Part shown: positions 6,698 through 20,672 of the stretch, piece after piece
Numbering within the stretch: position 1 is the first letter of the stretch
Layout of the letters: the number at the start of each line of letters is the position of its first letter
Source of the DNA: Nitrospiraceae bacterium
GTDB taxonomy: Bacteria > Nitrospirota > Nitrospiria > Nitrospirales > Nitrospiraceae
Assembly: GCA_052389595.1 (NCBI GenBank)
Contig: JBQTHT010000009.1
Span: forward strand, 207 to 64,206
Direction: 5' to 3'
Length of the DNA: 64,000 bases
Made by a program: the position numbers and the translations under genes
Notes under the pieces: generated by a model
What the model was told of the DNA's origin: nothing
Seen by the model: only the letters and a program-made list of their open reading frames with translations
Databases searched by the model: none

Positions 6698-6777
6698 GAC
6701 GTCATCCTCCTCATCTAGCCGATACGTTCCAAACGATGCTAAGATGGGCCGGTCACCCAACCGAAAAAAGGTACGTG

Positions 6778-7095
6778 ATGGATATCGATGCTTTTCGTCA
6801 GATGGTCGCCAAGAATCCCCAAGGCTTTTTGGGACGTTACGGCCTTGGCAACAAGATCCTGCAGGAAGGCGGCAATCTCGAAGAAGCAGTTGATCATCTA
6901 CGCGTGGCCACAGAACTCGATCCCACGCACGTCGCTTCGCATCTCGCATTAGGGCGCGCCTTGGTGTCGGTGGGAAGAAATGAAGAGGCGAAACCGGTTT
7001 TGAAGGCCGGCATCGATGCCGCGCTTTCCGGTCGTTCCAGCGGGGGCGTGGATCTCGTTCCCGAGCTACGGACCCTGCTCCAACAAATAGGCTGA
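6778..7095 (+). CDS. TPR-repeat protein
   Basis: The TPR-like helices read MDIDAFRQMVAKNPQGFLGRYGLGNKILQEGGNLEEAVDHLRVATELDPTHVASHLALGRAL. The ORF is open from 6736; ATG 6778 is the preferred start. Confidence 0.55.
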   Translation: MDIDAFRQMVAKNPQGFLGRYGLGNKILQEGGNLEEAVDHLRVATELDPTHVASHLALGRALVSVGRNEEAKPVLKAGIDAALSGRSSGGVDLVPELRTLLQQIG

Positions 7096-7116: not shown

Positions 7117-7320
7117 ATGACTCTGGATGAAGCACGGCAGCGCATTGAATCGGCAATCGAGCAATATGGCCAGCATGCGGGCATGGCTATCGATTTGGTC
7201 ATCAATGAAGTCAGCGGTGATCTTGGCCGGGAGAGCGCCAATACGCTGATCGAGGAGTTTGACCTTGAACTGCTCTATAACATCGCCCCCACGGATTCCC
7301 AAAGTTCGGGCAGTTTCTAA
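7117..7320 (+). CDS. small hypothetical protein
   Basis: 67-aa acidic ORF on the same strand as its neighbours and closely spaced with them. No family recognised. Confidence 0.3.
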   Translation: MTLDEARQRIESAIEQYGQHAGMAIDLVINEVSGDLGRESANTLIEEFDLELLYNIAPTDSQSSGSF

Positions 7321-7341: not shown

Positions 7342-8448
7342 GTGCCATTGATCTGGTGCTCGATTTCCGGCCACGGGTTTGGCCATGCGGCGCAAATGGT
7401 CCCGGTTCTCAATCAGCTCGGCTCTCATCTCCCCCACCTGACGGCTCTTCTTCACACCACTGTTCCAGCCTCATTCTTCCACAACCGTCTGACCATCACA
7501 TGGGAGCGATTCCCGATCGAGCAAGATATCGGGTGCGTGCAACAAGACCCGCTGAAGATTGACGTCGAGGCCACGTGGACCGAGCATCAACGGTTTCATC
7601 GCGAATGGAACAGGAAGCTGGCTGAAGAAGAGGCCGCGATTCGCGCACATCGACCTGACCTCGTGTTCTCGGACATTTCCTATCTGGCTATCGAGGCGGG
7701 CGCCCGAGCCGGCGTGAAGGCAATCGCACTCGGATCCTTGTCATGGGATCTGGTACTCATGCCGTTTGTGCAGCGAGGCAACGGGGACCAGCAGAGATTG
7801 ATCGAATCGATTCAATGCTCCTACAGTCACGCCCAATGCCTCTTGCGCCCCACGCCGGGCCTATCGATGGAGGCATTCCCGCGTGTCATCGATATCGGCC
7901 CGATTGCTGAACCGGCCCGAAACGAAGCTGCTCGCCTGCGTGAAGCCATCGGAGCAGCGGCGACCGAGTGCATGGTGCTCGTGGGATTCGGAGGAATCTC
8001 CATGCAGACGCTGCCCTTCGCTCAAATGGAACAGATGACCACCTACCGGTTCGTGGTTGATGGGCCGGTTCCCGGCGAATGTCGGCGCGTCCATTCAGCC
8101 TCTGCCCTGCCCTTGTCCTTCAAAGTCCTGCTTGCCTCCGCCGACCTCGTCATCACCAAACCCGGATATGGCACGATTACGGAAGCCGTGACGCTTCACA
8201 AACCTGTGGTCTACGTCCGGCGCTATAATTTTGCAGATGAACAGTCACTCGTGGATTACCTGCACCGATACGGGCGCGGCGCCGAATTATCGACAGCAGA
8301 CTTCTTTTCGGGCAATTGGAAGAAGGCCTTGGAAAGTGCGAGAGCGGCGTCTCAGTCACTCGAACGTCCCCCTGCTCCGACCGGTGCTGCGGATGCGGCA
8401 GCACTGCTGGCAACATATTTGCGGAGCGCGGCTCGTTCATCTGCATAG
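7342..8448 (+). CDS. glycosyltransferase (GT1/GT28 MurG-like fold)
   Basis: N-terminal SGHGFGHAAQ and C-terminal ASADLVITKPGYGTITEAV...KP are typical of UDP-sugar GT-B transferases. Confidence 0.55.
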   Translation: MPLIWCSISGHGFGHAAQMVPVLNQLGSHLPHLTALLHTTVPASFFHNRLTITWERFPIEQDIGCVQQDPLKIDVEATWTEHQRFHREWNRKLAEEEAAIRAHRPDLVFSDISYLAIEAGARAGVKAIALGSLSWDLVLMPFVQRGNGDQQRLIESIQCSYSHAQCLLRPTPGLSMEAFPRVIDIGPIAEPARNEAARLREAIGAAATECMVLVGFGGISMQTLPFAQMEQMTTYRFVVDGPVPGECRRVHSASALPLSFKVLLASADLVITKPGYGTITEAVTLHKPVVYVRRYNFADEQSLVDYLHRYGRGAELSTADFFSGNWKKALESARAASQSLERPPAPTGAADAAALLATYLRSAARSSA

Positions 8449-8515: not shown

Positions 8516-9337
8516 GTGTGTTGGATTGCATGGTTTGTACGACTGGCTGCAAGAGGATTGGATTCACTCGGTCACATGTTTCAGTCGATCGCGTCTGTCC
8601 TCTACAGTCTGTTGCCCGCACTGCTCCCTCCAAGTCACTTAAGCCGCCTTATCGCACGGCACTATGATGTCAGCTATCAGGACAATATCAACGAGTTCAC
8701 TCCCGAGCTGTTCGAATGGGACTTGGACCAGTGGGAGCAGCATGCCTTGGATCGGCATCGGATTGAAAGGGGTCGCATACTCGTGCTGGGAGCGGGAGTG
8801 GGCCGAGAAGCCGTCGCTCTGGCGCGGCGCGGTCTGAGCGTGACCGGCATCGACGTGAATCATGTTGCGCTTCGCACGGCTCGTCGGGTAGCCTCTACAG
8901 CTCACGTTCAGGCTCAATTCATTCAGGCCGACTTTTTGAGGTTACCCTGCCGTCCCCGAAGTTTCGATTATGTGATGTTGTCCGGCATCATGTATAGCGC
9001 TATTCCTGGCCGTGAGTTAAGACAGGCCTGGGTCCGTGACCTTATCGCTTCGCTGCCCTCACGAGGACTCGCCATCTTGAACTTTATGATCGACCAACGC
9101 TCATCAACCAGAACCCAGCGGCTGAGCGGCATATTGACTGCAGTCATCATGAGGTTACCGGGTGCCAACCGCACGTTTCAGATGGGTGACACCTGCGCTC
9201 AAGCGCACTTTCTCCATGCCTTTCAAAACGAACAGGAACTGCGACAAGAGCTCACCATAGACGGGGTCCTCATTCGAGAATTGAACTGGCGCGAACGGTA
9301 TGCCGTCGTGACCTGCAAGACCACATCCCGCGAGTGA
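8516..9337 (+). CDS. class I SAM-dependent methyltransferase
   Basis: Motif I reads ILVLGAGVGREAVALARRGLSVTGIDV. The start could instead be the internal Met at 8576. Confidence 0.7.
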   Translation: MCWIAWFVRLAARGLDSLGHMFQSIASVLYSLLPALLPPSHLSRLIARHYDVSYQDNINEFTPELFEWDLDQWEQHALDRHRIERGRILVLGAGVGREAVALARRGLSVTGIDVNHVALRTARRVASTAHVQAQFIQADFLRLPCRPRSFDYVMLSGIMYSAIPGRELRQAWVRDLIASLPSRGLAILNFMIDQRSSTRTQRLSGILTAVIMRLPGANRTFQMGDTCAQAHFLHAFQNEQELRQELTIDGVLIRELNWRERYAVVTCKTTSRE

Positions 9338-9415: not shown

Positions 9416-9709
9416 TTGATCATGGAACACGTCTACGTGAAGAATTCTGACTTTGTCCAGCGCGATGTCGCGGGTGAGTGCATCCTCGTTCCAATCCGCC
9501 GTCAACTCACCGATGTCAACAGCATTTATGTCCTCAATGAAACCGGCGCCGCGCTCTGGCATCGCATTGACGGAAAGCGCTCCGTGCAGGATATCGTCGA
9601 GGAGGTGTGTCAGGAATTTGAGGTCACTGCCGACCAGTTGATGCAAGACTTTGCCACGCTCCTCGACGATCTTCGCTCCATTAAAGCCATCGAGAGTATC
9701 ACTCCGTAG
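9416..9709 (+). CDS. PqqD-family peptide chaperone (RiPP recognition element)
   Basis: 97-aa ORF with the PqqD pattern (V..R.V.GE.ILVP......YVLNETGA.LW..IDG.RSV.DIV..V..EF.V). It ends 4 nt before the first radical SAM gene. Confidence 0.8.
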   Translation: MIMEHVYVKNSDFVQRDVAGECILVPIRRQLTDVNSIYVLNETGAALWHRIDGKRSVQDIVEEVCQEFEVTADQLMQDFATLLDDLRSIKAIESITP

Positions 9710-9713
9710 TCCT

Positions 9714-10625
9714 ATGCATCACCTGGATGCACTGACGCATATTCCCGAACGGTTCCCGCTTGCCTGTCAATGGGAGATCACCTGCCGGTGCAACCTCCAT
9801 TGCGTGATGTGCTACACGGATTGTTTCAATCGCCCGGATAAGATTCGTGACGAGCTGCTCACTCATGAGATCCTTGAGCTCATGGATGAGCTGGCCGAGG
9901 CCGGCTGTTTGGAAGTGTGCCTGACCGGAGGTGAGCCGCTGGCCCGACCCGATTTTTTCGAGTTGTACGAGCGGGCCGTCAGGAAGGGATTTCTTGTCAC
10001 CGTCTTCACGAACGGGACGTTGATCACCAAAACCGCAGCCGACCGCTTCGCCGCTTTTCCGCCGCATCGCATTGAGATCAGTGTTCACGGTTTCGGGGAA
10101 GAGAATTTCGAGCAGGTCACGGCCGGACACGGATCCTACCAGCGCTGTATGAACGCGATTCGTCTCTTGCGTGAGCGACAGCTTCCGTTGATCGTAAAGA
10201 CGACTGCCATGACGGTCAACATGCCGGACGTTCTGAAGATCAAACGATTCGTGCAACAGCTCGGGTCTGTCGGTTACAAATTAGGCGAAGAGCTTCGTCC
10301 GACACTCGATCACGATCTGTCGCCTCTGCAGCTAGGCCTTTCGGCTGACCAACTCCAAGAATTGAATCGGGCAGACCCAGAACTTTGGCAGGAAGCATGC
10401 TGGAAACAGACCGTACTGCCCGCACCATGTCAAAGCGGGATCCGTTCGTTTCATATCGATGCCTACGGCTCTTTGCAGCTGTGTTCCGGGAATCGAACTC
10501 AGGGCTACGACCTTCGGAGCGGTTCCTTCGCAGAAGGGTTTTATCGCTACCTGCCGACGTTTGCCTGTGAATGGAAATCACGGCGTGCGAGTCTTCTTGT
10601 CAATCCAGCGACCAGCCATGCGTGA
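9714..10625 (+). CDS. radical SAM enzyme with a shortened (Twitch-like) auxiliary cluster domain
   Basis: It has a CNLHCVMC (CX3CX2C) motif and a GGEPL motif. The C-terminal region has C-x12-G-x4-C (PCQSGIRSFHIDAYGSLQLC) but no CX2CX5CX3C block. The start is placed at ATG 9714, in frame with ORF 9651-10625. Confidence 0.85.
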   Translation: MHHLDALTHIPERFPLACQWEITCRCNLHCVMCYTDCFNRPDKIRDELLTHEILELMDELAEAGCLEVCLTGGEPLARPDFFELYERAVRKGFLVTVFTNGTLITKTAADRFAAFPPHRIEISVHGFGEENFEQVTAGHGSYQRCMNAIRLLRERQLPLIVKTTAMTVNMPDVLKIKRFVQQLGSVGYKLGEELRPTLDHDLSPLQLGLSADQLQELNRADPELWQEACWKQTVLPAPCQSGIRSFHIDAYGSLQLCSGNRTQGYDLRSGSFAEGFYRYLPTFACEWKSRRASLLVNPATSHA

Positions 10626-11736
10626 TACTCGAACCATGGTTCCCATTGAATACAAGGATTTCAGCCGCACCATTCACGAAAATGCCGCGGCCCAGGATCG
10701 CGTGATCAAAGCGCAACTGGAACTCACCTATCGCTGCAATCTCCACTGCTTGCATTGTTATACCGACCCGTACAATACGAAGGAATTCTTTCCACGTGAA
10801 CTCACCTTAGCGGAGACCACGCGACTCATTGATGAAATGGTCGATCTGGGAATCATCTGGCTCAACTTGACCGGCGGCGAAATCTTTACGCATCCGCATT
10901 TCTTTGAGATCTACGAATATGCTCACCGTAGAGGCCTCTTGCTGATGCTGTACACCAACGGAACGCTGTTCACACAAGGCATTATCGAACGCCTCCGGCA
11001 GTCTCCTCCTTTTTCAATCGATGTTTCCGTTCATTCGGTCGACCCGGAGGCTTTTGATCGGTTCACCCAAGTTCACGGTTCGTTTCGAACGTTCATCAAA
11101 GGGATGGAGTTGTTGAAGAACAGCGGGCTGCCATTTTGTTTCAAGACCAAAGCGATGAATTGGAATAAAGATGAACTGCCTGAGATTGAACGGTTCGTGA
11201 CATCATTCGGCCAGCAGTTTGGATACACCACGTCGCTTTCCCCTCGACTGAACGGCAACCTCTCTTCACTGGCGTATCGTCTCACGCCGTCGGAGATTGG
11301 GGACATTGAGACACCACACGTTTCGGCGAATAACGATGGCGAGGCCTGCTGTGTCTCTGATGCACTTGGTCCTGCACAGAATGACCGCCTGTTCCGATGC
11401 GGCTGCGCCACCAACCAGATTCATATCAATGCGTGGGGAGCATTGGGCACCTGCACCCTGCAATACGAACGCCGCGTTTCTTTGCGTGAGCATGCGCTGA
11501 AAGAAGCAGTGGATAAACTTTTCCGAGACGTGCGCGCCCTTCGTTATGAAGGCGACTCTCCGTGCAGGCATTGCGCTATTCATCGATTTTGCGACAAGAA
11601 GCCCTCTGACGCGAACTGGGAACGCGGCCATCCGGAAGCGCCCATTCCTTACGATTGCGATGTCGCCTGGACTCGCGCCCAACGCATTTTCGGACAGACG
11701 TTGATCCATCCCCTGCACCTCCGGGTTAAGGGGTGA
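10618..11736 (+). CDS. radical SAM/SPASM-domain peptide-modifying enzyme
   Basis: It has a CNLHCLHC motif and LTGGEIF. The SPASM elements are GALGTC and CRHCAIHRFC (CX2CX5C). ATG 10618 overlaps the upstream stop (ATGCGTGA). Confidence 0.85.
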   Translation: MRDTRTMVPIEYKDFSRTIHENAAAQDRVIKAQLELTYRCNLHCLHCYTDPYNTKEFFPRELTLAETTRLIDEMVDLGIIWLNLTGGEIFTHPHFFEIYEYAHRRGLLLMLYTNGTLFTQGIIERLRQSPPFSIDVSVHSVDPEAFDRFTQVHGSFRTFIKGMELLKNSGLPFCFKTKAMNWNKDELPEIERFVTSFGQQFGYTTSLSPRLNGNLSSLAYRLTPSEIGDIETPHVSANNDGEACCVSDALGPAQNDRLFRCGCATNQIHINAWGALGTCTLQYERRVSLREHALKEAVDKLFRDVRALRYEGDSPCRHCAIHRFCDKKPSDANWERGHPEAPIPYDCDVAWTRAQRIFGQTLIHPLHLRVKG

Positions 11737-11743
11737 AAGGAGG
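11737..11743 (+). promoter_or_regulatory. Shine-Dalgarno AAGGAGG for the precursor ORF
   Basis: A perfect AAGGAGG lies 5 nt upstream of ATG 11749, directly after the rSAM stop codon at 11734-11736. Confidence 0.6.
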
Positions 11744-11748
11744 TTGCG

Positions 11749-11934
11749 ATGAGAGAGAAAAAATCCTACAGTCCTCCGCAACTCTTTCGAGTCGACTTGA
11801 ATCATGAGCAGGCGATCTTAAGCGCATGCAGCTTGATGGCCAGCAATCCTATGGCTGGAGGGATGGACATCTCTTGCCGTGCAGGAAGCTGTAAGAGAGC
11901 CGCGACGGGAGACAGCGGGCTGCGTCCATCCTGA
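11749..11934 (+). CDS. candidate RiPP precursor peptide (61 aa)
   Basis: The sequence is MREKKSYSPPQLFRVDLNHEQAILSACSLMASNPMAGGMDISCRAGSCKRAATGDSGLRPS. It has a strong RBS and sits inside the operon. It carries a YxxPxL motif (Y7, P10, L12), three Cys (27, 43, 48) and a C-terminal Ser. Confidence 0.6.
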   Translation: MREKKSYSPPQLFRVDLNHEQAILSACSLMASNPMAGGMDISCRAGSCKRAATGDSGLRPS

Positions 11935-11994
11935 ATCGCAGCGCTTTACGTCAGACTTTTTTTCGTATACGCCGACGTCAACCAGAGTGCAAGT

Positions 11995-12900
11995 ATGCGC
12001 ATTGATGTCCAGATTGCCGGATATACGATTCGCCTCGAAGAGGCCGCTGATCAGGCTTGCCTATCTTGGCCGCTCAGCCCGTTCGAATCGTTTACGACTC
12101 CATCCTCTGTTGCTCCGGACATTCATTTCGATGTCAGAATCGTGAAGGAACTTTCACCCTGCCGACTCGGTTCGTTGCGCTTCGATGCCTGTCACGGTCT
12201 CTGGAAATTGTTCGAATCCGACACAGGCTTGATCCTGGAATCGGCGGATACACGCACTCTTCAACCGCGACTCCGTGCGTATCTCACCACTGATTTTTCT
12301 CTCGCCGAGGTGTTGGCCTGCGAGCAACAGACGGATGGGATCACCGGCTGGGTTCCGATGCACGTTATCAATCCATTGATGGAAATCTGTCTTGTCACAA
12401 AGCTGGCACGGCAGGGCGGGATTCTGTTGCACGGATCCGGAATACTGGTGAGCGGCCATGGCACGATCTTTACCGGCCCTTCCGGAGCAGGAAAATCTAC
12501 CTTGTCCGCTTTCTTTGCAACCCAACAGGCCACCGTGCTCAGCGACGAACGAGTCATTCTTCGCAAGATGGGGGAAACAGTAGTCGTTCATGGAACTCCG
12601 TGGGTGGGGACCGGTTGCTATGCGAAGAATGAGTCGGGTCCTTTGACGCGACTGTATTGCATACGACATGGTCGCGACCGCCATCGTCTCGACCCGATGC
12701 TCCCTGGTGATGTCTTTCGCTTTCTCCTTCGCCAGTGCTATCTTCCTCACTGGGATCGAGACGCCTTGGACATGACGCTCCGTTTTCTTTCTCTGCTGAT
12801 TCAGCGCGTCGATTGCGCCGGATTGGCGTTTGTGAAAGATCCCGATATCGTAGAATATCTATCGCGCCACCCGCCCTCCCCATCCTTCGCGCTTTCATGA
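11995..12900 (+). CDS. HPr-kinase-related P-loop kinase
   Basis: LHGSGILVSGHGTIFTGPSGAGKSTLSAFF...LSDERV resembles the HprK C-terminal domain-like kinases found in RiPP clusters. Confidence 0.75.
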   Translation: MRIDVQIAGYTIRLEEAADQACLSWPLSPFESFTTPSSVAPDIHFDVRIVKELSPCRLGSLRFDACHGLWKLFESDTGLILESADTRTLQPRLRAYLTTDFSLAEVLACEQQTDGITGWVPMHVINPLMEICLVTKLARQGGILLHGSGILVSGHGTIFTGPSGAGKSTLSAFFATQQATVLSDERVILRKMGETVVVHGTPWVGTGCYAKNESGPLTRLYCIRHGRDRHRLDPMLPGDVFRFLLRQCYLPHWDRDALDMTLRFLSLLIQRVDCAGLAFVKDPDIVEYLSRHPPSPSFALS

Positions 12901-13952
12901 AGCACCTGAAGCCTGATGCCTGGTTGGAATCCGTCACGACGCGAGCCGCCATGCGACGCCGGCCGGAGGGCGTCACCTTCGAGCTGACCTATGGATGCAA
13001 TCTCCGATGTCTTCACTGCTATAACCCGACTCATCGCATCTTACCCGAAGAATTGACGACGGCAGAGGTTGGCGGGGTCCTCGAGCAACTTGCCGAGTTT
13101 GGTGTCCTGAGCATCACCTTCACGGGTGGAGAGCCGTCCGTGCGTCCCGATATTGCCACGATCCTGCGGCAGGCCCGTTCCCACGGATTCGTGATTCAAT
13201 TGTTGACCAACGCCACCCGCATCACGCCTTCTTTCGCCGATGTCCTGGTAGAGACTGGCATTCACCAAGTGAATGTTTCGATCTATGGCGCCACAGAGAT
13301 GACGTATGAACGAATGACCGGAATCCCTGGTTCCTACACACTGTTTCGACAAGGACTTACCTGTTTGGCCTTGCGACAAATATCGGTCAACGTGCGAATG
13401 CCGGTTACCACGCTAAATGAGCATGAAGTGCCGGCATGTCGCGCTCTGATCGAACCTTTTGGTTTCAAATTCCAATATTGCCTCGATGTCATGCCAAGGA
13501 CCAACGGCGACACAACTCCACTGCAATATCGGCTCAGTCCTGAGGCTAAACGGCGGATCGACCAAGCGATGCTCAACCGGTCGGCAGTTGCGATAGAAGA
13601 TCAATGTTCTTCAGATCGCCCGTTTATTGAGTGCGCCTGCGGCAAGACCCGCTTTGCGATCACACCCTATGGCGAAATGAATCTCTGTGTGGCTTTTCCC
13701 ATCCCGAGGTACAACCTTCGCGCAGGCTCGGTGAAGGATGGATGGGAGATCTTGAAGCAGACGGTCGACCATGCTAGGCCCAATGCCAACTATGAATGTC
13801 CGGCCTGTGAGGTGCGGTCTCACTGCCGCCAGGGCCGGAGCGACGCGTGGCTTGAAACCGGCGACATGAGCGCCTGCCTTCCTCATTTCAAAGACTTGGC
13901 TCGGTTGGAACAGACCACCTATGTTGCCATCGACTCTCGACCGGTTCGTTGA
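12897..13952 (+). CDS. radical SAM/SPASM-domain peptide-modifying enzyme
   Basis: It has a CNLRCLHC motif and FTGGEPS. The SPASM elements are GEMNLC and CPACEVRSHC. ATG 12897 overlaps the kinase stop codon (ATGA). Confidence 0.85.
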   Translation: MKHLKPDAWLESVTTRAAMRRRPEGVTFELTYGCNLRCLHCYNPTHRILPEELTTAEVGGVLEQLAEFGVLSITFTGGEPSVRPDIATILRQARSHGFVIQLLTNATRITPSFADVLVETGIHQVNVSIYGATEMTYERMTGIPGSYTLFRQGLTCLALRQISVNVRMPVTTLNEHEVPACRALIEPFGFKFQYCLDVMPRTNGDTTPLQYRLSPEAKRRIDQAMLNRSAVAIEDQCSSDRPFIECACGKTRFAITPYGEMNLCVAFPIPRYNLRAGSVKDGWEILKQTVDHARPNANYECPACEVRSHCRQGRSDAWLETGDMSACLPHFKDLARLEQTTYVAIDSRPVR

Positions 13953-14871
13953 GTCCTACGCGCAGGTCGGCGCCTTGAACACCAGAATTCTTGACCGGCT
14001 CGCTGCGGTCGGGATGCTGTTTCAGCGTGAACAGATTGATTTCCTGTTGTTGAAAGGCGCCGATCTGATTTCCCGCCTGTACGGCATACGGGGAATCAGA
14101 CCGCTCTCCGACGTGGATCTCCTGGTCCGAGAAAAAGATCTGCCACGCATTGATACCCTTCTTCAGTCTTCTGGATTTGTCCAGCAGATAGACGGTAATC
14201 CGGCCTATTGCTCACTGGCAGACCACGTGATGTTGGACATCACCACAGATCTCTGGTATCTCGACCAAACGGACCTTTCTAAGCTGTGGGAACGGGCCAT
14301 CCCGCGCCGGATCGGCGGCCGAATGATGAAATGCATGGGAAGTGAAGACCTCGTGCTGTATCTCACGGCCTATGCGGTGATCCATCGCGGACAGCTTTCA
14401 CCCTCCTTTTATACTGACCTCGCCTTGCTGCTTCAACGTGAACCGGTGGAATGGCCCATGATCAGTCAACGTGCTGCCCAGGGTGGGTTGAGAACGGCCC
14501 TGTATCATGGCCTCACCTCGTTGTCCCGGTCGGGATACCATCCCGTGCCGGATCGCTACCTTCAACAATTGGCGCCATCGACGATGTCCGAACGCGGTCT
14601 GTGGTTTCTTTTACGAAAGGTCGTGACGAAGGAATGGCTACCGGAGATCGGGCATGTTCTGCTGTTGCTCACCACTCCGGGTAGAAGGAAATGGCATCGA
14701 CTGTGGGCGCTTATCTGTCCTTCAACGAGATTCCTCGGTTATCGGTATGGGAAACAGGGCACTGAGCATGCCATCCGTACAAGAGTGGCGCGCCTGGGTA
14801 TACTCTTCGCTCGAGGCGTTCGATTAAGTATCCACCTTCTGATGTTGACCCTGACACCCACCCGGCGATGA
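13921..14871 (+). CDS. nucleotidyltransferase-family protein (PF14907-like)
   Basis: LLLKGADLISRLYG.....RPLSDVDLLVREKDL matches the uncharacterised nucleotidyltransferase family seen in lasso and kinase-associated RiPP clusters. It overlaps the upstream gene by 32 nt. Confidence 0.65.
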   Translation: MLPSTLDRFVESYAQVGALNTRILDRLAAVGMLFQREQIDFLLLKGADLISRLYGIRGIRPLSDVDLLVREKDLPRIDTLLQSSGFVQQIDGNPAYCSLADHVMLDITTDLWYLDQTDLSKLWERAIPRRIGGRMMKCMGSEDLVLYLTAYAVIHRGQLSPSFYTDLALLLQREPVEWPMISQRAAQGGLRTALYHGLTSLSRSGYHPVPDRYLQQLAPSTMSERGLWFLLRKVVTKEWLPEIGHVLLLLTTPGRRKWHRLWALICPSTRFLGYRYGKQGTEHAIRTRVARLGILFARGVRLSIHLLMLTLTPTRR

Positions 14872-15737
14872 TCCGGCTGCTTTGCCCAGACCCATTGCGC
14901 ACGGCTTTTTCAGCCGCCGACCTCACCCCCGTCACGGCTGCTGAACTGTCTCACCTGGTTGAATTTACCGTCACCAGCTGGAGCATGCTCCCGGCTATTC
15001 ATAAAGGTGATCGCGTGCGCTTCGAGCCGGTCGAGACACTCATGGTCGGCGACATCGTCGTGTTTCGCAAGGAAGGATCTCTTATCTGCCATCGAATTAT
15101 CGCCGTCACCGATACCGGCATGGTCGAAGTAAAAGGAGATGGTAACCAGGGAAGTGGGGAGGTCATGGCCCCGTCGCAGATACTTGGGAGGGTATGCGGG
15201 ATCGCTCGATCACAAGATTGTATTCCGAAACCATCTACAGGCAACCAGGACCGCCAGGTCGATCTCTTGGTCGTCGTCCTGCAGTATTGGGTCGCGTCGG
15301 TACGAGCGACGACGCTGGTAGCATGTGGCTGCTTGATTTCAGCTCTGAAACAATATGGGTGGATTTGCCGTCTCTTTTCGCATGCGACGAAGCAGAGCGT
15401 TCGCTTTTCCCTTAGCCGACGAGCGCCCCTGCAATCAATCCGGGGTTACTACAGAATGGGAGGACGGGGTCACCGCTTGCATGACCTCCTCCGGCTGATT
15501 CAAGAGCACGAGGTGGTGCTTGAAGCGCTGGTGGTCCAAGCTCACCTGGGACCTTACCCAATTGCCTTCTATCATCCCGCCTCCGGCGAACAGCATATCC
15601 GGCGTACGCTTCACGGATTGGGCATCGAAGAATGTTTCAACGTATTGGGACAGGCATGGCCTCGCTCGACCCGAGTCCATTGTCACCAAAAAGACCATCT
15701 GTTATCGGATCGCCAACAGTTTTCTTCCCTGCGGTAG
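14868..15737 (+). CDS. S26/S24-type serine peptidase domain protein with an unknown C-terminal half
   Basis: SWSMLPAIHKGDRVRFEP....VGDIVVF...GSLICHRII resembles the signal peptidase I / LexA-like fold. Its start overlaps the upstream gene (ATGA). Confidence 0.6.
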   Translation: MIRLLCPDPLRTAFSAADLTPVTAAELSHLVEFTVTSWSMLPAIHKGDRVRFEPVETLMVGDIVVFRKEGSLICHRIIAVTDTGMVEVKGDGNQGSGEVMAPSQILGRVCGIARSQDCIPKPSTGNQDRQVDLLVVVLQYWVASVRATTLVACGCLISALKQYGWICRLFSHATKQSVRFSLSRRAPLQSIRGYYRMGGRGHRLHDLLRLIQEHEVVLEALVVQAHLGPYPIAFYHPASGEQHIRRTLHGLGIEECFNVLGQAWPRSTRVHCHQKDHLLSDRQQFSSLR

Positions 15738-15875
15738 GGATTTCTCCCTTACCCGACTTTCTCTAAAATTTCTCTGTACTTAAGTATGCATCTCTTTGGA
15801 CGATCCGTCCGTAGAATGATATGATTGCGGCGTGTCCTTTACTTACGCAGTAGGGGCACCAAAAGGTTCGCTCGA

Positions 15876-16478
15876 ATGGAAGCTTCACCACAGCACGCCG
15901 CAACGTCCATTGACCCAAAACTGATTGCCCGCGTCGTCAAGGGTGATGCACATGCATTCACCCAATTGTACGATCAGTCCTGTTCGCTGCTATACACGTT
16001 GGCATTGCGTATATTAGGAAACCGCGATGAAGTGGCCGAGCTGCTTCAAGATGTCTATCTGGAGGTATGGCGCAAGAGCGCCCGGTACGATGTCGGACGG
16101 GGAACCCCGATCGCATGGCTTGTGACTTTAACCAGGAGCCGTGCCATTGACCGTTTACGAACCCGGGCTTCGCGTCCTCAGGCCGTGGCGGACTCGATGG
16201 ACAACCTCACGACGATTCATATTCCAGACCAGGGGCCGGGACCGTTTGAACATCATGCGGACACGGAAGTTCGCCATCAGGTTGCGAGCGCGCTCGGGGC
16301 GCTTCCCGCAGCGCAACAGCAAGCGCTGGAAATGGCCTTCTACGAAGGTTTGTCGCATGTGGAAATTGCAGCCCGACTCAATCAACCCTTAGGTACGATT
16401 AAAACCAGGATCAAGCTCGGCATGACCAAATTGCGAACGGCATTACGAGGCTGCTGGGACTTAGGTGACGAGCCATGA
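15876..16478 (+). CDS. ECF-type RNA polymerase sigma factor
   Basis: Sigma-70 region 2 reads LLQDVYLEVWRKSARYD......WLVTLTRSRAIDRLR. Region 4 reads LPAAQQQALEMAFYEGLSHVEIAARLNQPLGTIKTRI. Confidence 0.85.
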   Translation: MEASPQHAATSIDPKLIARVVKGDAHAFTQLYDQSCSLLYTLALRILGNRDEVAELLQDVYLEVWRKSARYDVGRGTPIAWLVTLTRSRAIDRLRTRASRPQAVADSMDNLTTIHIPDQGPGPFEHHADTEVRHQVASALGALPAAQQQALEMAFYEGLSHVEIAARLNQPLGTIKTRIKLGMTKLRTALRGCWDLGDEP

Positions 16479-17503
16479 CACACGAAGAACTGGACGAGGC
16501 AGTGGCGCTGTATGCAGTCGGCGCGTTGGATCGCGCGGAGCGGCAACTCCTTGAAGCACATCTGCTTTCGGGATGTTCCTCATGCCATGCCTCACTCAAG
16601 GAATATCAGGCCGTGGCCACGTTGCTTCCATTCGGTTTACCGCTTTCCTCGCCGCCGCGCGCGCTCAAAACCAAGATCATGGCGGCTCGCACGCCCGCGA
16701 TTCCGAGTCCGTCTGAGACTGTCAAAGAACCCGGCACACCAAGCCTAGAGCCGGGCGAATGGATGAATCATCTCTTCCCGCCGATCACACCCACTCGCTC
16801 TCTTCCGTTCAGATTTGCGATGGGTTTTGCCGCTTTAGCGATTGTTGCCGTGACAGGATATGTCGGGTGGTCCCTGTATTCTCGGGTGGCAACGGAAAGT
16901 GGAAAGGTAGAGCAGTTGCAAACGGCCTTACAAAAGGACACGACGAAGCTTGCCTCTTTTCAGCGGGAGCTGTCCGAACGGGAGACCGCCTTGGGCAGAC
17001 TGCGCCAGGAATTACAACAACGTAACACCGACATCCAGGAGTTTCGCGACATCGTGATCCAGCGCGAAGCGGAGTTGGACGACTTGCGTAACCAACTGGC
17101 ACTTCTGGAAAAGGCCTCCAGCGCAACGCGCAAAGGACGCTCACAGCAAGATGAATTGGCGACACTGTTGCGGGCGCCGGACGTGCGCGTCGTAACCTTA
17201 GCCGGATCGAGTATTGCCAAAGGCGCCAGCGGCTTGTTGCTCTACGATCCTCATACAAAGAAAGCATGGCTCTACGCCGTTAATCTCCCGGAATGTCCAA
17301 GTGGTACGATTTATCAAGTTTGGGGTATCGATGAGAAACCTGTGAGTGTCGATACGTTTCATATCGACACTGGGCAAACGGCGCATTTGTTGAGCAAGCG
17401 ATTACCCGACTTTCCCCGTATGAAACAATTCGCGGTCAGCCTCGAACCGGTCGGTGGCCGTCCCCAACCAACCGGCGCGATTTATCTTCAAGGTCAGCTC
17501 TAA
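16475..17503 (+). CDS. anti-sigma factor (zf-HC2 N-terminus, RskA-like C-terminus)
   Basis: LYAVGALDRAERQLLEAHLLSGCSSCHASLKEY is followed by a TM segment and a coiled-coil. The C-terminal part reads ...YQVWGIDEKPVSVDTF. Its start overlaps the sigma gene (ATGA). Confidence 0.8.
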   Translation: MTHEELDEAVALYAVGALDRAERQLLEAHLLSGCSSCHASLKEYQAVATLLPFGLPLSSPPRALKTKIMAARTPAIPSPSETVKEPGTPSLEPGEWMNHLFPPITPTRSLPFRFAMGFAALAIVAVTGYVGWSLYSRVATESGKVEQLQTALQKDTTKLASFQRELSERETALGRLRQELQQRNTDIQEFRDIVIQREAELDDLRNQLALLEKASSATRKGRSQQDELATLLRAPDVRVVTLAGSSIAKGASGLLLYDPHTKKAWLYAVNLPECPSGTIYQVWGIDEKPVSVDTFHIDTGQTAHLLSKRLPDFPRMKQFAVSLEPVGGRPQPTGAIYLQGQL

Positions 17504-18141: not shown

Positions 18142-18930
18142 CTATGACAACGTCGCGATAGCCCATCCATCGTCTCTTGGCCATTCTTGGTATGTGACGT
18201 CCCAATTCTCTCCTTCAGCCGCCACCGAACCGACATAGCCGGGCTTGACGGAAAGCGTTCGAATAAGCCAGGGGTTGCATGCATCCCTGCCTGATACATT
18301 GACTCGCGCCTTTCCGGAGACCAAAGAGATTTCACATTGACTCAAGGGAACGGAAAGACCACTGCCTCTGCCCTTCAGATAAGACTCCTTACAGGTCCAA
18401 TAGACAAAAAACAGCCGCTTGGCTTCGTGGGGAGGCTGCTGTCGAAGGCGCTCAAATTCAGTGGTTGAGAAGAAGCGCGCGGCCAGTGCCATCGCCTCCA
18501 CGTCGTCACGGAGCGCCTCAAGATCTACCCCGACTTCCCGTTCTCTTGCAAAGGCGAACAGACCCAGCTCGTGAGAATGAGACAGATTAAATTGCAGGCG
18601 CCCGGAAATATTCGAGGGATTATGAAGAAACGGTTTTCCCTGCGCCCCTGAACGAAACACCAGCGTGGAAGGCGCCAGACGTTCATAGAGACCCACGAGT
18701 GTCCGGAGAATTCCGTGCGCGGCGATAAACCGTATGCGGTCACATGGGAATACAAAGCGGCTCGCCCTCATGCGTTCATCGTCCGATAAAATCCGTTCGA
18801 GTTGAACGATCTGAGGTTCGGGGAGCGCCAACGAAGCCTGCCACACATGGACATCCGTCGACGTTATCTGATAGGGCTGAGAAGGAGGGCGATTCTGTGA
18901 AGGCTCGCTGATCATCTGCCGGCTTGACAT
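18142..18930 (-). CDS. Sfp-type 4'-phosphopantetheinyl transferase
   Basis: It has the FNLSHS, VGVDLE and WTCKESYLKGRG motifs. It is the last gene of the NRPS operon. Confidence 0.85.
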   Translation of the reverse strand: MSSRQMISEPSQNRPPSQPYQITSTDVHVWQASLALPEPQIVQLERILSDDERMRASRFVFPCDRIRFIAAHGILRTLVGLYERLAPSTLVFRSGAQGKPFLHNPSNISGRLQFNLSHSHELGLFAFAREREVGVDLEALRDDVEAMALAARFFSTTEFERLRQQPPHEAKRLFFVYWTCKESYLKGRGSGLSVPLSQCEISLVSGKARVNVSGRDACNPWLIRTLSVKPGYVGSVAAEGENWDVTYQEWPRDDGWAIATLS

Positions 18931-18960
18931 ACAGAGCGCTTATCTTGGTAATGGATTCGA

Positions 18961-20646: not shown

Positions 20647-20672
20647 AGCCCATCCCTCAGTATCGAGTTCAC

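What the first reader, a model, noticed from the sequence alone, without database searches (positions are those of the whole stretch)
9416..15737. Hybrid RiPP operon: PqqD-RRE, three radical SAM enzymes, HPr-kinase-like kinase, nucleotidyltransferase and S26 peptidase, with no lasso cyclase
Eight same-strand genes are packed with translational coupling. The gap at 9709/9714 is 4 nt. The overlaps are ATGCGTGA at 10618-10625, ATGA at 12897-12900, 32 nt at 13921-13952, and ATGA at 14868-14871. The products are a PqqD-like RRE and rSAM-1 with a Twitch-like tail. Then come rSAM-2 (SPASM), a 61-aa ORF and an HprK-like P-loop kinase. The last three are rSAM-3 (SPASM), a PF14907-type nucleotidyltransferase and an S26-like peptidase. 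The RRE, kinase and nucleotidyltransferase set is what I associate with phosphorylated lasso-peptide clusters (paeninodin type). Here there is no Asn-synthetase-like cyclase and no transglutaminase-like B2 protease. Three PqqE-like rSAM enzymes take their place. The rSAM pair plus PqqD plus a kinase-like protein also resembles my recollection of the TIGRFAMs 'SynChlorMet (Scm) cassette', for which no precursor was defined. This looks like a poorly characterised or uncharacterised RiPP class that combines rSAM crosslinking with C-terminal tailoring.
Basis: partly seen in the sequence, partly recalled or inferred. Interest (0 to 1): 0.88.

Follow-up and report, generated by a model that had tools for sequence, protein, structure and literature searches.

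The report
Uncharacterised Nitrospira radical-SAM peptide gene cluster
This is a real, widely conserved gene cluster of nitrite-oxidising Nitrospira bacteria that most likely turns a small ribosomal peptide into a cross-linked product with a modified (probably phosphorylated) serine, and no product of this kind has been described.

Summary
All eight ORFs, the 4-nt gap and every stated overlap are at the stated coordinates. Domain calls hold: PqqD, three radical SAM enzymes, PF14907 nucleotidyltransferase and S24/S26 peptidase by HMM, and the kinase by fold and motif. The window is a Nitrospiraceae MAG contig.

The 61-aa ORF is the precursor peptide and is unannotated in the source record. Its family has 189 protein clusters, a conserved KKxYxxPxL…EQAILSxC leader, a hypervariable core with three conserved Cys, and a conserved DSGxRxS tail. 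The last residue is Ser in 78 of 83 locus-derived peptides, and 1-4 tandem copies occur.

In about 75 related loci, rSAM1, rSAM2, kinase, rSAM3 and NTase are present wherever the contig allows (32/32 to 49/49). Peptidase is 28/30 and PqqD 35/37. The cluster is wider than reported. It often adds a methyltransferase, a GT1-fold glycosyltransferase and an ECF sigma/anti-sigma pair.

The kinase carries the catalytic motif of lasso-peptide precursor kinases with identical spacing, but the window has no lasso cyclase or B2 protease. No gene reaches any curated NCBIfam cut-off, including SynChlorMet, and no paper was found.

Verdict: an uncharacterised RiPP family, a new variant of a known kind. The chemistry is inferred, not shown.

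The parts
6736..7095 (+). TPR protein (119 aa), frequent upstream neighbour; role unknown
   Evidence: Pfam TPR_19/TPR_17/TPR_11 above GA. Present in 14/24 evaluable related loci.
7117..7320 (+). Conserved 67-aa protein of unknown function (no Cys, no family hit)
   Evidence: 58-75% identical orthologues at the same position in L001, L003 and L012. Present in 16/25 loci. No Pfam or NCBIfam hit.
7342..8448 (+). GT-B fold, GT1-like glycosyltransferase (368 aa); accessory tailoring enzyme
   Evidence: HMM hits are sub-threshold only. The AF2 model has pLDDT 92.0. Foldseek top hits are natural-product GT1 enzymes (elaiophylin GT 7yp4, EspG2, SpnP, YojK) at E about 1e-11 and TM about 0.6. Present in 18/25 loci.
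8516..9337 (+). Class I SAM-dependent methyltransferase (273 aa)
   Evidence: PF13649 51.9 bits and PF08241 43.3 bits. Present in 26/33 loci, and after rSAM3 in a variant subgroup. Also present in the distant locus L085.
9416..9709 (+). PqqD-family RiPP recognition element (97 aa; an alternative ATG start lies at 9422)
   Evidence: PF05402 63.6 bits. Weak matches to lasso B1 chaperones TbiB1 and TfuB1 in the PDB. Present in 35/37 loci.
9714..10625 (+). Radical SAM enzyme 1 (303 aa) with a short C-terminal tail carrying one auxiliary-cluster Cys set (Twitch-like)
   Evidence: PF04055 93.2 bits. The CX3CX2C motif is C26/C30/C33. Conserved C239, C257 and C285 (C229 in 4/5 sequences) follow, with no CX2CX5C motif. 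Present in 40/40 loci.
10618..11736 (+). Radical SAM enzyme 2 (372 aa) with a SPASM-like tail
   Evidence: PF04055 81.8 bits. C40/C44/C47 plus eight invariant Cys (244, 261, 263, 279, 316, 319, 325, 347) that include CX2CX5C. Full-length alignment to the MftC model. Present in 47/47 loci.
11749..11934 (+). Precursor peptide gene (61 aa): MREKKSYSPPQLFRVDLNHEQAILSACSLMASNPMAGGMDISCRAGSCKRAATGDSGLRPS
   Evidence: Strong Shine-Dalgarno sequence. The family has 189 protein clusters. The leader is conserved (0.65 bits entropy), the core is variable (1.9-2.7 bits) and the tail is conserved (0.85 bits). Loci carry 1-4 tandem copies. 78/83 unique peptides end in Ser. The exact sequence is absent from the protein collection, so the gene is unannotated.
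11995..12900 (+). HprK/PEPCK-fold P-loop kinase, distant ScmC relative (301 aa); proposed peptide Ser kinase
   Evidence: TIGR04355 30.2 bits, TIGR04352 24.9, TIGR00679 24.0 and TIGR04249 17.5, all below cut-off. Precomputed PF27840:ScmC hits are weak. AF2 model pLDDT 90.9 with Foldseek hits to HprK/P and PEPCK. The motif H146-G161-G164-G166-K167-S168-D184-E185 has the same spacing as the BsfK motif. Present in 49/49 loci.
12897..13952 (+). Radical SAM enzyme 3 (351 aa) with a SPASM-like tail
   Evidence: PF04055 82.3 bits. C34/C38/C41 plus seven invariant Cys (246, 248, 264, 301, 304, 310, 327). Best solved relative is PqqE 6c8v, E 2e-14. Present in 36/36 loci.
13921..14871 (+). PF14907 (NTP_transf_5) nucleotidyltransferase-fold protein (316 aa)
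   Evidence: PF14907 108.6 bits. Invariant K45-G46 ... D64-x-D66 ... D106. Present in 32/32 loci. Fused to the peptidase in L012.
14868..15737 (+). S26B (SEC11/SipW-type) signal-peptidase-like Ser-His protease (289 aa) with one hydrophobic segment (133-160); proposed leader peptidase
   Evidence: PF00717 30.2 bits. TIGR02228 47 bits against a cut-off of 51.85. PDB SEC11A/C at E 2e-3, aligning SxSMxP, HR and GD boxes. Invariant S39, M40, P42, G47, D48 and H75. Hydropathy. Present in 28/30 loci.
15825..16478 (+). ECF sigma factor (SigK-like), frequent downstream neighbour; possible regulator
   Evidence: Sigma70_r2/r4. NF009172 175 bits, below cut-off. Present in 20/27 loci and absent in L011.
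16475..17503 (+). Anti-sigma factor (RskA_C) with one transmembrane-like segment
   Evidence: PF10099 68 bits. NF052375 121 bits, above its cut-off of 100. TM-like segment 109-134. Present in 18/25 loci.

Best explanation
This is a biosynthetic gene cluster for a ribosomally synthesised, post-translationally modified peptide (RiPP).

Proposed pathway:
1. The 61-aa product of 11749-11934 is the precursor. Its roughly 25-residue leader (KKxYxxPxL...LNxEQAIL) is bound by the PqqD-type recognition protein, which presents it to the enzymes. This step is inferred by analogy.
2. The three radical SAM enzymes modify the core. One carries one auxiliary Fe-S site and two carry SPASM-like double sites. 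The most likely chemistry is thioether cross-links from the three conserved Cys (C27, C43, C48). This step is inferred.
3. The HprK-fold kinase has an intact lasso-kinase-type active site. It phosphorylates a conserved Ser, most likely the nearly invariant C-terminal Ser61. This step is inferred.
4. The PF14907 protein further decorates that phosphate or peptide. Where present, the GT1 glycosyltransferase and the methyltransferase do so too. Possible additions are a hexose or nucleotide and a methyl group. This step is inferred.
5. The SEC11-like Ser-His peptidase removes the leader, plausibly after AIL(S/A/T) (-3 aliphatic, -1 small). This is a weak inference.

What is shown: the genes, their folds and motifs, the precursor family, and the strict co-conservation. 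What is not shown: every chemical step and the biological role.
For: Genes and junctions are confirmed, and so are the domain and fold calls.

Precursor:
- It has a strong Shine-Dalgarno sequence and a family of 189 clusters.
- Leader and tail are conserved while the core is variable.
- Loci carry 1-4 tandem copies, and orphan copies occur elsewhere.
- Three conserved Cys are typical, and 78/83 unique peptides have a C-terminal Ser.
- The YxxPxL motif is the leader motif recognised by lasso B1 RREs (PMC10368454).

Kinase:
- H146-G161-G164-G166-K167-S168-D184-E185 has the same spacing as the experimentally validated BsfK motif H148-G163-G166-G168-K169-S170-D186-D187.
- HprK-like kinases phosphorylate the C-terminal Ser of paeninodin-type precursors. 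PsmN, the nucleotidyltransferase-annotated protein of the pseudomycoidin cluster, is needed to add hexose to that phospho-Ser (PMC9266682).

Co-conservation: rSAM1 40/40, rSAM2 47/47, kinase 49/49, rSAM3 36/36, NTase 32/32, S24 28/30, PqqD 35/37.

Other support:
- The same gene set occurs in a different order in a locus whose kinase is only 35% identical (L085). Its precursor is homologous, has three Cys and ends in Ser.
- NTase and peptidase are fused in L012.
- The radical SAM Cys sets are conserved.
Against: - No product, mass or activity is known.
- No gene reaches a curated NCBIfam cut-off, so functions are transferred from distant relatives.
- PF13186 (SPASM) is not detected.
- One characterised lasso kinase (BsfK) targets Ser3 of the core, not the C-terminal Ser. 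S28 or S56 could therefore be the site.
- One distant locus (L005) has a ScmC-like gene and NTases, but its peptide ends in ...TG.
- Minimal relatives (L086, L005) have a single rSAM for three Cys. The division of labour among the three enzymes is therefore unknown.
- The cluster has no transporter or immunity gene, so it is unclear whether the product is exported.
Confidence: 0.6

Rival explanations
1. The cluster makes a peptide-derived cofactor or housekeeping metabolite, in the manner of PQQ or mycofactocin, rather than a secreted natural product. Only a small conserved piece of the precursor (for example the DSGxRxS tail) would be excised, phosphorylated or glycosylated, and used inside the cell.
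For: - The cluster lies among core chromosomal genes (ValRS, DnaK/J, RecA, AlaRS).
- Its flanks are syntenic in several Nitrospiraceae genomes.
- It has no transporter or immunity gene.
- PqqD + PqqE-like rSAM + peptidase + glycosyltransferase + methyltransferase parallels the MftB/C/E/F/M logic. MftC is among the best rSAM3 model hits (105 bits).
- The tail is as conserved as the leader.
Against: - The region between the Cys is hypervariable, and 20 of 60 loci carry 2-4 divergent tandem precursors, plus orphan copies. This is typical of diversifying secreted RiPPs. Cofactor precursors are conserved and uniform.
- MftC and PqqE cut-offs are missed by a wide margin (105 vs 265 bits; 84 vs 381 bits).
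- The precursor has no C-terminal Val-Tyr or Glu/Tyr pair.
- In L011 the cluster sits in different flanks.
Confidence: 0.15
2. The cluster is a RiPP cluster but the chemistry differs. The kinase phosphorylates an internal conserved Ser (S25, S28 or S56). The phosphate could be a leaving group giving dehydroalanine that a Cys attacks. Alternatively, the radical SAM enzymes make C-C cross-links, epimerise or otherwise modify non-Cys residues, while the Cys form disulfides or bind metal.
For: - BsfK phosphorylates Ser3 of its core rather than the C-terminal Ser.
- S25, S28 and S56 are 93-99% conserved.
- The rSAM proteins are no closer to sactipeptide or ranthipeptide maturases than to NirJ/AhbD/MftC models.
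- One rSAM suffices in minimal relatives.
Against: - No lyase or cyclase domain is present in the cluster.
- The last residue is Ser in 78/83 peptides even though tail length and neighbouring residues vary. This argues for chemistry specific to the terminus.
- Cys-rich cores next to SPASM enzymes are the hallmark of thioether RiPPs (established knowledge of AlbA, PapB and CteB).
Confidence: 0.2
3. The cluster is not a peptide pathway. The small ORF is incidental and the enzymes act on a non-peptide substrate, for example a sugar-phosphate or a cell-envelope component controlled by the ECF sigma factor.
For: GT1, nucleotidyltransferase, methyltransferase and kinase could in principle build a glycoconjugate. 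An ECF sigma/anti-sigma pair is adjacent in 20/27 loci.
Against: - The small ORF is conserved, duplicated in tandem and always sits between rSAM2 and the kinase.
- A PqqD RRE is present.
- The leader carries the RRE-binding YxxPxL motif.
- The core module persists without the GT and the ECF pair in L011.
Confidence: 0.03

Closest known systems
Phosphorylated lasso peptide clusters (paeninodin, pseudomycoidin, Bradymonas Bsf)
   Same: - A discrete PqqD-type RRE.
- A YxxPxL leader motif.
- An HprK-like precursor kinase with the same H...GxxGxGKS...D(D/E) motif and spacing.
- A nucleotidyltransferase-annotated partner (PF14907 here).
- A precursor ending in Ser.
   Different: - No Asn-synthetase-like cyclase and no transglutaminase-like B2 protease in the Pfam-scanned ORFs of the 64-kb window.
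- Three radical SAM enzymes, an S26B-like peptidase, a methyltransferase and often a GT1 enzyme take their place.
- The core has no ring-forming Asp/Glu pattern. It has three conserved Cys.
SynChlorMet (Scm) cassette of TIGRFAMs/NCBIfam (ScmC, ScmD, ScmE, ScmF) and the Pfam ScmC family PF27840
   Same: - PqqD relative + PqqE-like radical SAM/SPASM proteins + a roughly 300-aa ScmC-like protein.
- Pfam ScmC is the only family precomputed on the kinase (weak or faint hit).
- Loci whose kinase hits PF27840 strongly (L010, L085, L086) encode a homologous 3-Cys peptide ending in Ser next to it.
   Different: - All four NCBIfam Scm models score far below their cut-offs: 17.5 vs 125, 29.6 vs 100, 98 vs 400 and 77 vs 400 bits.
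- The Nitrospira clade is a small subclade of the superfamily: 39 of 8789 representatives at E<=1e-30.
- It has three rSAM enzymes plus NTase, peptidase and methyltransferase.
- From my own recollection, no precursor or function has been defined for Scm. A search for 'SynChlorMet' found no paper.
Sactipeptide and ranthipeptide pathways (AlbA/subtilosin, PapB/freyrasin, CteB/thermocellin)
   Same: RRE-guided radical SAM enzymes with auxiliary Fe-S clusters, next to a short precursor whose core has conserved Cys. The leader is of the KKxYxxPxL type (from my own knowledge, seen in some ranthipeptide precursors).
   Different: - AlbA, StsB, PapB and SkfB models score only 42-103 bits against cut-offs of 300-850.
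- The CX2CX5CX3C motif lacks its fourth Cys, and PF13186 is not detected.
- No known member carries the kinase + PF14907 + S26B peptidase set.
Mycofactocin and PQQ pathways
   Same: PqqD-type chaperone + PqqE/MftC-like radical SAM enzyme + peptidase, with glycosyltransferase and methyltransferase tailoring as in MftF and MftM. The location is chromosomal and the cluster appears vertically inherited.
   Different: - Model cut-offs are not reached.
- The precursor has no C-terminal Gly-Val-Tyr or Glu-x3-Tyr.
- The core is hypervariable and multi-copy.
- A kinase and an NTase are present.

Membership tests
SynChlorMet cassette (NCBIfam TIGR04248-TIGR04251) | ScmC equivalog model TIGR04249 at or above its cut-off of 125 bits | tested here: not met
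   17.5 bits, E 2e-3. Only weak or faint precomputed Pfam PF27840 hits on orthologues.
SynChlorMet cassette (NCBIfam TIGR04248-TIGR04251) | ScmD (cut-off 100 bits), ScmE (400 bits) and ScmF (400 bits) equivalog models reached | tested here: not met
   ScmD 29.6 bits. ScmE best 98.4 bits (rSAM1). ScmF best 76.8 bits (rSAM2).
Lasso peptide cluster, phosphorylated (paeninodin) type | Asn-synthetase-like lasso cyclase (C) and transglutaminase-like leader protease (B2) | tested here: not met
   Pfam scans of the cluster and of nearly all other ORFs of >=150 aa in the window show neither. The NRPS ORF was identified only from its orthologues.
Lasso peptide cluster, phosphorylated (paeninodin) type | PqqD-type RRE plus a YxxPxL leader motif | tested here: met
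   PF05402 63.6 bits. Y7, P10 and L12 are 99%, 100% and 91% conserved. The motif is described in PMC10368454.
Lasso peptide precursor kinases (PadeK/ThcoK/PsmK/BsfK) | Catalytic motif H-x14-G-x2-G-x-G-K-S-x15-D-D, validated by mutagenesis in BsfK | tested here: met
   H146, G161, G164, G166, K167, S168, D184 and E185 are invariant in 32 orthologues, with spacing identical to BsfK. The last Asp is Glu.
Lasso peptide precursor kinases (PadeK/ThcoK/PsmK/BsfK) | Phosphorylation of a precursor Ser (the C-terminal Ser in the paeninodin type) | not testable with these tools
   The substrate feature is present: the last residue is Ser in 78/83 unique peptides. Activity needs experiment.
HPr kinase/phosphorylase and HprK-related kinase A/B systems | TIGR00679 (cut-off 240 bits), TIGR04352 (200 bits) or TIGR04355 (200 bits) reached | tested here: not met
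   24.0, 24.9 and 30.2 bits. The fold is nevertheless HprK/PEPCK-like.
Radical SAM/SPASM peptide maturases | CX3CX2C radical SAM motif and PF04055 | tested here: met
   All three proteins score 82-93 bits, and the motif Cys are invariant.
Radical SAM/SPASM peptide maturases | SPASM domain: seven-Cys motif CX9-15GX4C ... CX2CX5CX3C ... C, or PF13186/TIGR04085 | tested here: inconclusive
   No PF13186 hit at E<=0.01. rSAM2 and rSAM3 have 7-8 invariant tail Cys, including CX10GX4C and CX2CX5C, but lack the CX3C Cys. rSAM1 has only the first half.
Sactipeptide/ranthipeptide class | Cys-to-carbon thioether cross-links in the product | not testable with these tools
   Only the precondition is seen: three conserved Cys in the core.
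Mycofactocin / PQQ pathways | MftC (cut-off 265 bits) or PqqE (381 bits) model reached, and a precursor with C-terminal Val-Tyr or a Glu/Tyr pair | tested here: not met
   Best scores are 105.4 and 84.2 bits. The precursor ends in ...DSGLRPS and its only Tyr is in the leader.
Signal peptidase I, S26B (SEC11/SipW/archaeal type) | Catalytic Ser in the SxSMxP box and His in the HR box; TIGR02228 at or above 51.85 bits | tested here: inconclusive
   S39 and H75 are invariant in 5 orthologues and align to the SEC11A boxes. TIGR02228 scores 47.0 bits, just below its cut-off. PF00717 (S24) is above GA and PF10502 (S26) is below GA.

The most novel reading that the evidence does not exclude
A new RiPP class, ancestral to and nearly universal in Nitrospira-lineage bacteria and related to thousands of ScmC-type cassettes in other phyla. 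In it, a Cys-containing peptide is cross-linked by radical SAM enzymes. Its C-terminal serine is then built into a phospho-glycosyl or phospho-nucleotidyl, methylated appendage by an HprK-like kinase, a PF14907 enzyme, a GT1 enzyme and a methyltransferase. This would be the first case of lasso-type C-terminal tailoring on a non-lasso scaffold. It would also assign the missing precursor and the function of ScmC.
Probability: 0.35. Interest if true: 0.8.

Novelty: new variant of a known kind. Interest (0 to 1): 0.62.

Why it matters
Nitrospira are the dominant nitrite oxidisers and complete ammonia oxidisers in soils, waters and wastewater plants, and almost nothing is known about their peptide natural products.

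This cluster is conserved across many Nitrospirota contigs. Its precursor gene escaped annotation in this source record.

Three points would follow if the reading is right:
- It links a large family with no described function (Pfam ScmC, thousands of representatives) to a defined precursor type with three Cys and a terminal Ser.
- It suggests that the kinase/nucleotidyltransferase tailoring known only from lasso peptides is a portable module used on other scaffolds.
- It gives a directly testable system: one peptide and a handful of soluble enzymes for heterologous expression. This could reveal new radical SAM chemistry and a new peptide phosphate ester modification.

Tried and rejected
- A genome-contig scan with kinase alignment A5 was wasted. 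L006-L008 show only short P-loop-region matches and were not resolved.
- Literature searches found nothing on this system. They covered SynChlorMet, ScmC, radical SAM + HPr kinase + RiPP, Nitrospira + ranthipeptide, and PF14907/TIGR04249/TIGR04355/PF27840 plus the leader string. A WasteFams preprint mentions PqqD/radical SAM families in wastewater, but it could not be linked to this cluster.
- The terminator/promoter scan found no more sites than shuffled controls and no attenuator after the precursor gene.
- 'One radical SAM enzyme per Cys' was considered and dropped. L086 and L005 pair one rSAM with three Cys.
- Sequence search of the NTase against the PDB found nothing.
- L006, a high-GC locus with HprK-like and NTase hits, was too ambiguous to annotate.
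- The look-up of encoding contigs on two representatives gave contigs too short for context beyond the adjacent peptide.

Full report
**1. Observation**

All eight ORFs and every junction are exactly as reported.
- PqqD (9416-9709) ends 4 nt before the rSAM1 ATG at 9714.
- rSAM1 and rSAM2 overlap in ATGCGTGA at 10618-10625.
- The kinase and rSAM3 overlap in ATGA at 12897-12900.
- rSAM3 and the NTase overlap by 32 nt (13921-13952).
- The NTase and the peptidase overlap in ATGA at 14868-14871.
- The 61-aa ORF starts 12 nt after rSAM2, behind an AAAGGAGG Shine-Dalgarno sequence.

An exact protein match (locus tag ACT4OO_00775) identifies the window as a 64,229-bp contig of a Nitrospiraceae MAG.

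**2. Domain calls**

Calls that pass Pfam gathering scores:
- PF05402 PqqD, 63.6 bits.
- PF04055 Radical_SAM, 93, 82 and 82 bits.
- PF14907, 108.6 bits.
- PF00717 Peptidase_S24, 30.2 bits.

The peptidase is better described as SEC11/SipW-type S26B.
- TIGR02228 scores 47 bits against a cut-off of 51.85.
- Its best PDB hits are SEC11A and SEC11C, aligning the SxSMxP, HR and GD boxes.
- S39 and H75 are invariant in five orthologues that are only about 29% identical overall.

The kinase is below threshold for every HMM: TIGR04355 30 bits, TIGR04352 25, TIGR00679 24, TIGR04249 17.5.
- A confident AF2 model (pLDDT 90.9) finds HPr kinase/phosphatase and PEPCK as top folds (probability 1.0).
- phmmer aligns its HG...GxSGxGKS...SDE segment to L. 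casei HprK.
- Residues H146, G161, G164, G166, K167, S168, D184 and E185 are invariant in 32 orthologues.
- Their spacing equals that of the mutagenesis-validated motif of the lasso precursor kinase BsfK, H148-G163-G166-G168-K169-S170-D186-D187 (PMC10368454).

PF13186 (SPASM) did not hit.
- rSAM2 has eight tail Cys and rSAM3 has seven. Both include CX10GX4C and CX2CX5C.
- rSAM1 has only the first half-motif, which is Twitch-like.

No gene reaches a curated NCBIfam cut-off.

**3. The 61-aa ORF is the precursor**

A profile of five homologues retrieves 189 protein clusters. Where a source name is given, it is Nitrospirota or Nitrospiraceae.

The consensus is M.EKKPYS.PQLFRVELNQEQAILSACS - variable - C(R) - variable - CK - variable - GDSG.RPS. 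Conservation by region:

| Region | Entropy (bits) |
|---|---|
| Leader, residues 1-28 | 0.65 |
| Inter-Cys regions | 1.9-2.7 |
| Tail | 0.85 |

Further points:
- Y7, P10 and L12 form the YxxPxL motif that lasso B1 RREs recognise.
- Across loci, 83 unique peptides were extracted. Of these, 59 have exactly three Cys and 78 end in Ser. Two end in Cys and three are truncated paralogues.
- The window's exact peptide is absent from the 15-billion-protein collection. The source locus tags leave no number for it. It was therefore not annotated.

**4. Co-conservation**

Evidence comes from five genome or long-contig loci and 72 metagenome loci found with the precursor profile. They were scored by tblastn with the window proteins. 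Counts are given over the loci long enough to contain each gene.

| Gene | Present / evaluable |
|---|---|
| rSAM1 | 40/40 |
| rSAM2 | 47/47 |
| kinase | 49/49 |
| rSAM3 | 36/36 |
| NTase | 32/32 |
| peptidase | 28/30 |
| PqqD | 35/37 |
| methyltransferase (8516-9337) | 26/33 |
| 368-aa protein (7342-8448) | 18/25 |
| ECF sigma | 20/27 |
| anti-sigma | 18/25 |

- About 21 loci are colinear with the window for all eight genes.
- Twenty of 60 loci have 2-4 tandem precursor genes.
- Orphan copies occur far from any cluster (L051 and L052).
- L011 carries the methyltransferase-to-peptidase module in different flanks, without the GT or the ECF pair. That module is therefore the functional core.
- L012 fuses the NTase and the peptidase into one 559-aa ORF.
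- The 368-aa protein is a GT-B, GT1-type glycosyltransferase by structure. Its AF2 model has pLDDT 92, and it matches elaiophylin GT, EspG2, SpnP and YojK at E about 1e-11.

**5. Wider family**

The kinase belongs to a very large superfamily: 8789 representatives at E<=1e-3 but only 39 at E<=1e-30. Members about 30-35% identical to the window kinase hit Pfam PF27840 'ScmC' strongly. Three of them were examined.
- L085 has the same gene set in another order: two PqqD genes, a TPR protein, three rSAM enzymes, a methyltransferase, ScmC, S24 and PF14907. Its homologous peptide ends ...AATS.
- L086 is minimal: PqqD, one rSAM, a peptide ending ...VGS, and ScmC.
- L010 has ScmC, a peptide ending ...GITS and an rSAM.

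The Anaerolineales locus L005 has PqqD, an rSAM, a 3-Cys peptide, a ScmC-like gene and two NTases, but its peptide ends ...VTG.

The recurrent unit is therefore RRE + rSAM + ScmC-like kinase + a 3-Cys peptide that usually ends in Ser. None of these loci reaches the NCBIfam Scm cut-offs either. The TIGRFAMs cassette proper is thus a narrow relative, not the family of this locus.

**6. Mechanism**

Shown:
- Gene content, folds and intact active-site motifs.
- The anatomy of the precursor family.
- Strict linkage of the genes.

Inferred, in order of confidence:
- (a) PqqD binds the YxxPxL leader and recruits the enzymes. B1 stimulates BsfK in this way.
- (b) The kinase phosphorylates a precursor Ser. 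The terminal Ser is favoured because it stays Ser while the tail varies. Paeninodin-type kinases also act on the C-terminal Ser (PMC9266682).
- (c) The PF14907 protein decorates the phosphate, as PsmN is required for hexosylation of phospho-Ser. The cluster's own GT1 and methyltransferase suggest a phospho-sugar or phospho-nucleotide appendage that is then methylated.
- (d) The rSAM enzymes cross-link the Cys as thioethers.
- (e) The S26B-like peptidase has one hydrophobic segment. It may cut after AIL(S/A/T), which fits the -3/-1 rule in all variants seen.

**7. What it is not**

- No lasso cyclase or B2 protease is present in the Pfam-scanned ORFs of >=150 aa in the 64-kb window. The NRPS ORF was identified only from its orthologues. 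The rest of the window is core housekeeping genes plus an adjacent NRPS locus.
- MftC and PqqE thresholds are missed. The precursor also lacks their target residues.

**8. Novelty and score**

Nine full-text searches found no description of this system. It is an uncharacterised RiPP family that recombines known parts, which makes it a new variant of a known kind.

It is attractive for three reasons. It is widespread in an ecologically key genus. It connects the ScmC superfamily, which has no described function, to a precursor type. It is easy to test.

All chemistry is inferred, many uncharacterised rSAM RiPP clusters exist, and the related cassette was flagged bioinformatically years ago. Interest is therefore 0.62.

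Noticed in passing
window 18142-29942 (- strand): A separate NRPS locus lies about 0.6 kb beyond the anti-sigma gene and tadA. It comprises a 4'-phosphopantetheinyl transferase (18142-18930), an ABC exporter (18961-20646) and a 3089-aa ORF (20673-29942). The orthologous ORFs in L003 and L012 carry AMP-binding, PP-binding and Condensation domains. The locus is present next to the RiPP cluster in L003 and L012 but absent in L001 and L011.
   Followed up: partly
window 11749-11934: The precursor gene is not annotated in the source record. Its exact product is absent from the protein collection, and the locus tags ACT4OO_00750 (GT) to _00775 (kinase) leave no number for it.
   Followed up: yes
L051 9983-10183; L052 10001-10180: Orphan precursor copies (for example ...KKPYVTPLVFRVELNPEQAILTACS...RDSGARPS) have no cluster gene within 10 kb. 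The L051 copy lies beside a Gfo/Idh/MocA-like oxidoreductase ORF (judged by eye, no HMM run) and an unidentified ORF on the opposite strand. This suggests precursors supplied in trans.
   Followed up: partly
L012 12147-13826: The nucleotidyltransferase and the S26B-like peptidase are one continuous 559-aa ORF in this Nitrospiraceae genome. L012 also has a second, truncated precursor-like ORF (9769-9927) that lacks the DSG..S tail.
   Followed up: partly
L027 658-840; L069 1-117: Two precursor variants end in ...GDSAMRPC, with Cys replacing the otherwise near-invariant terminal Ser.
   Followed up: no
window 7117-7320: A 67-aa protein without Cys or any family hit is conserved (58-75% identity) immediately upstream of the glycosyltransferase in 16/25 loci. 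Its function is unknown.
   Followed up: partly
window 1910-3697 (- strand): A 595-aa protein with a nitroreductase-family domain (PF00881, 46 bits) is a conserved upstream neighbour in L001, L003 and L012. Whether it belongs to the pathway, for example as a SagB-like dehydrogenase, was not examined.
   Followed up: no
L058, L060, L066, L070: A variant subgroup has the order rSAM3 - methyltransferase - peptidase - about 1.3 kb of other genes - NTase. PqqD lies about 2 kb upstream of rSAM1, and the cores contain four Cys (...C.G.CRKCM...).
   Followed up: partly
L086 3286-11184: In a minimal ScmC system (PqqD, one rSAM, peptide, ScmC), the next genes are a 1347-aa Peptidase_C25 protein and a large polyketide synthase.
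   Followed up: no
window 33631-34977 (- strand): This ORF combines ketopantoate reductase domains (ApbA, ApbA_C) with a C-terminal partial molybdopterin-oxidoreductase domain (PF00174, 50 bits). It may be an unusual fusion or two genes merged by ORF calling.
   Followed up: no
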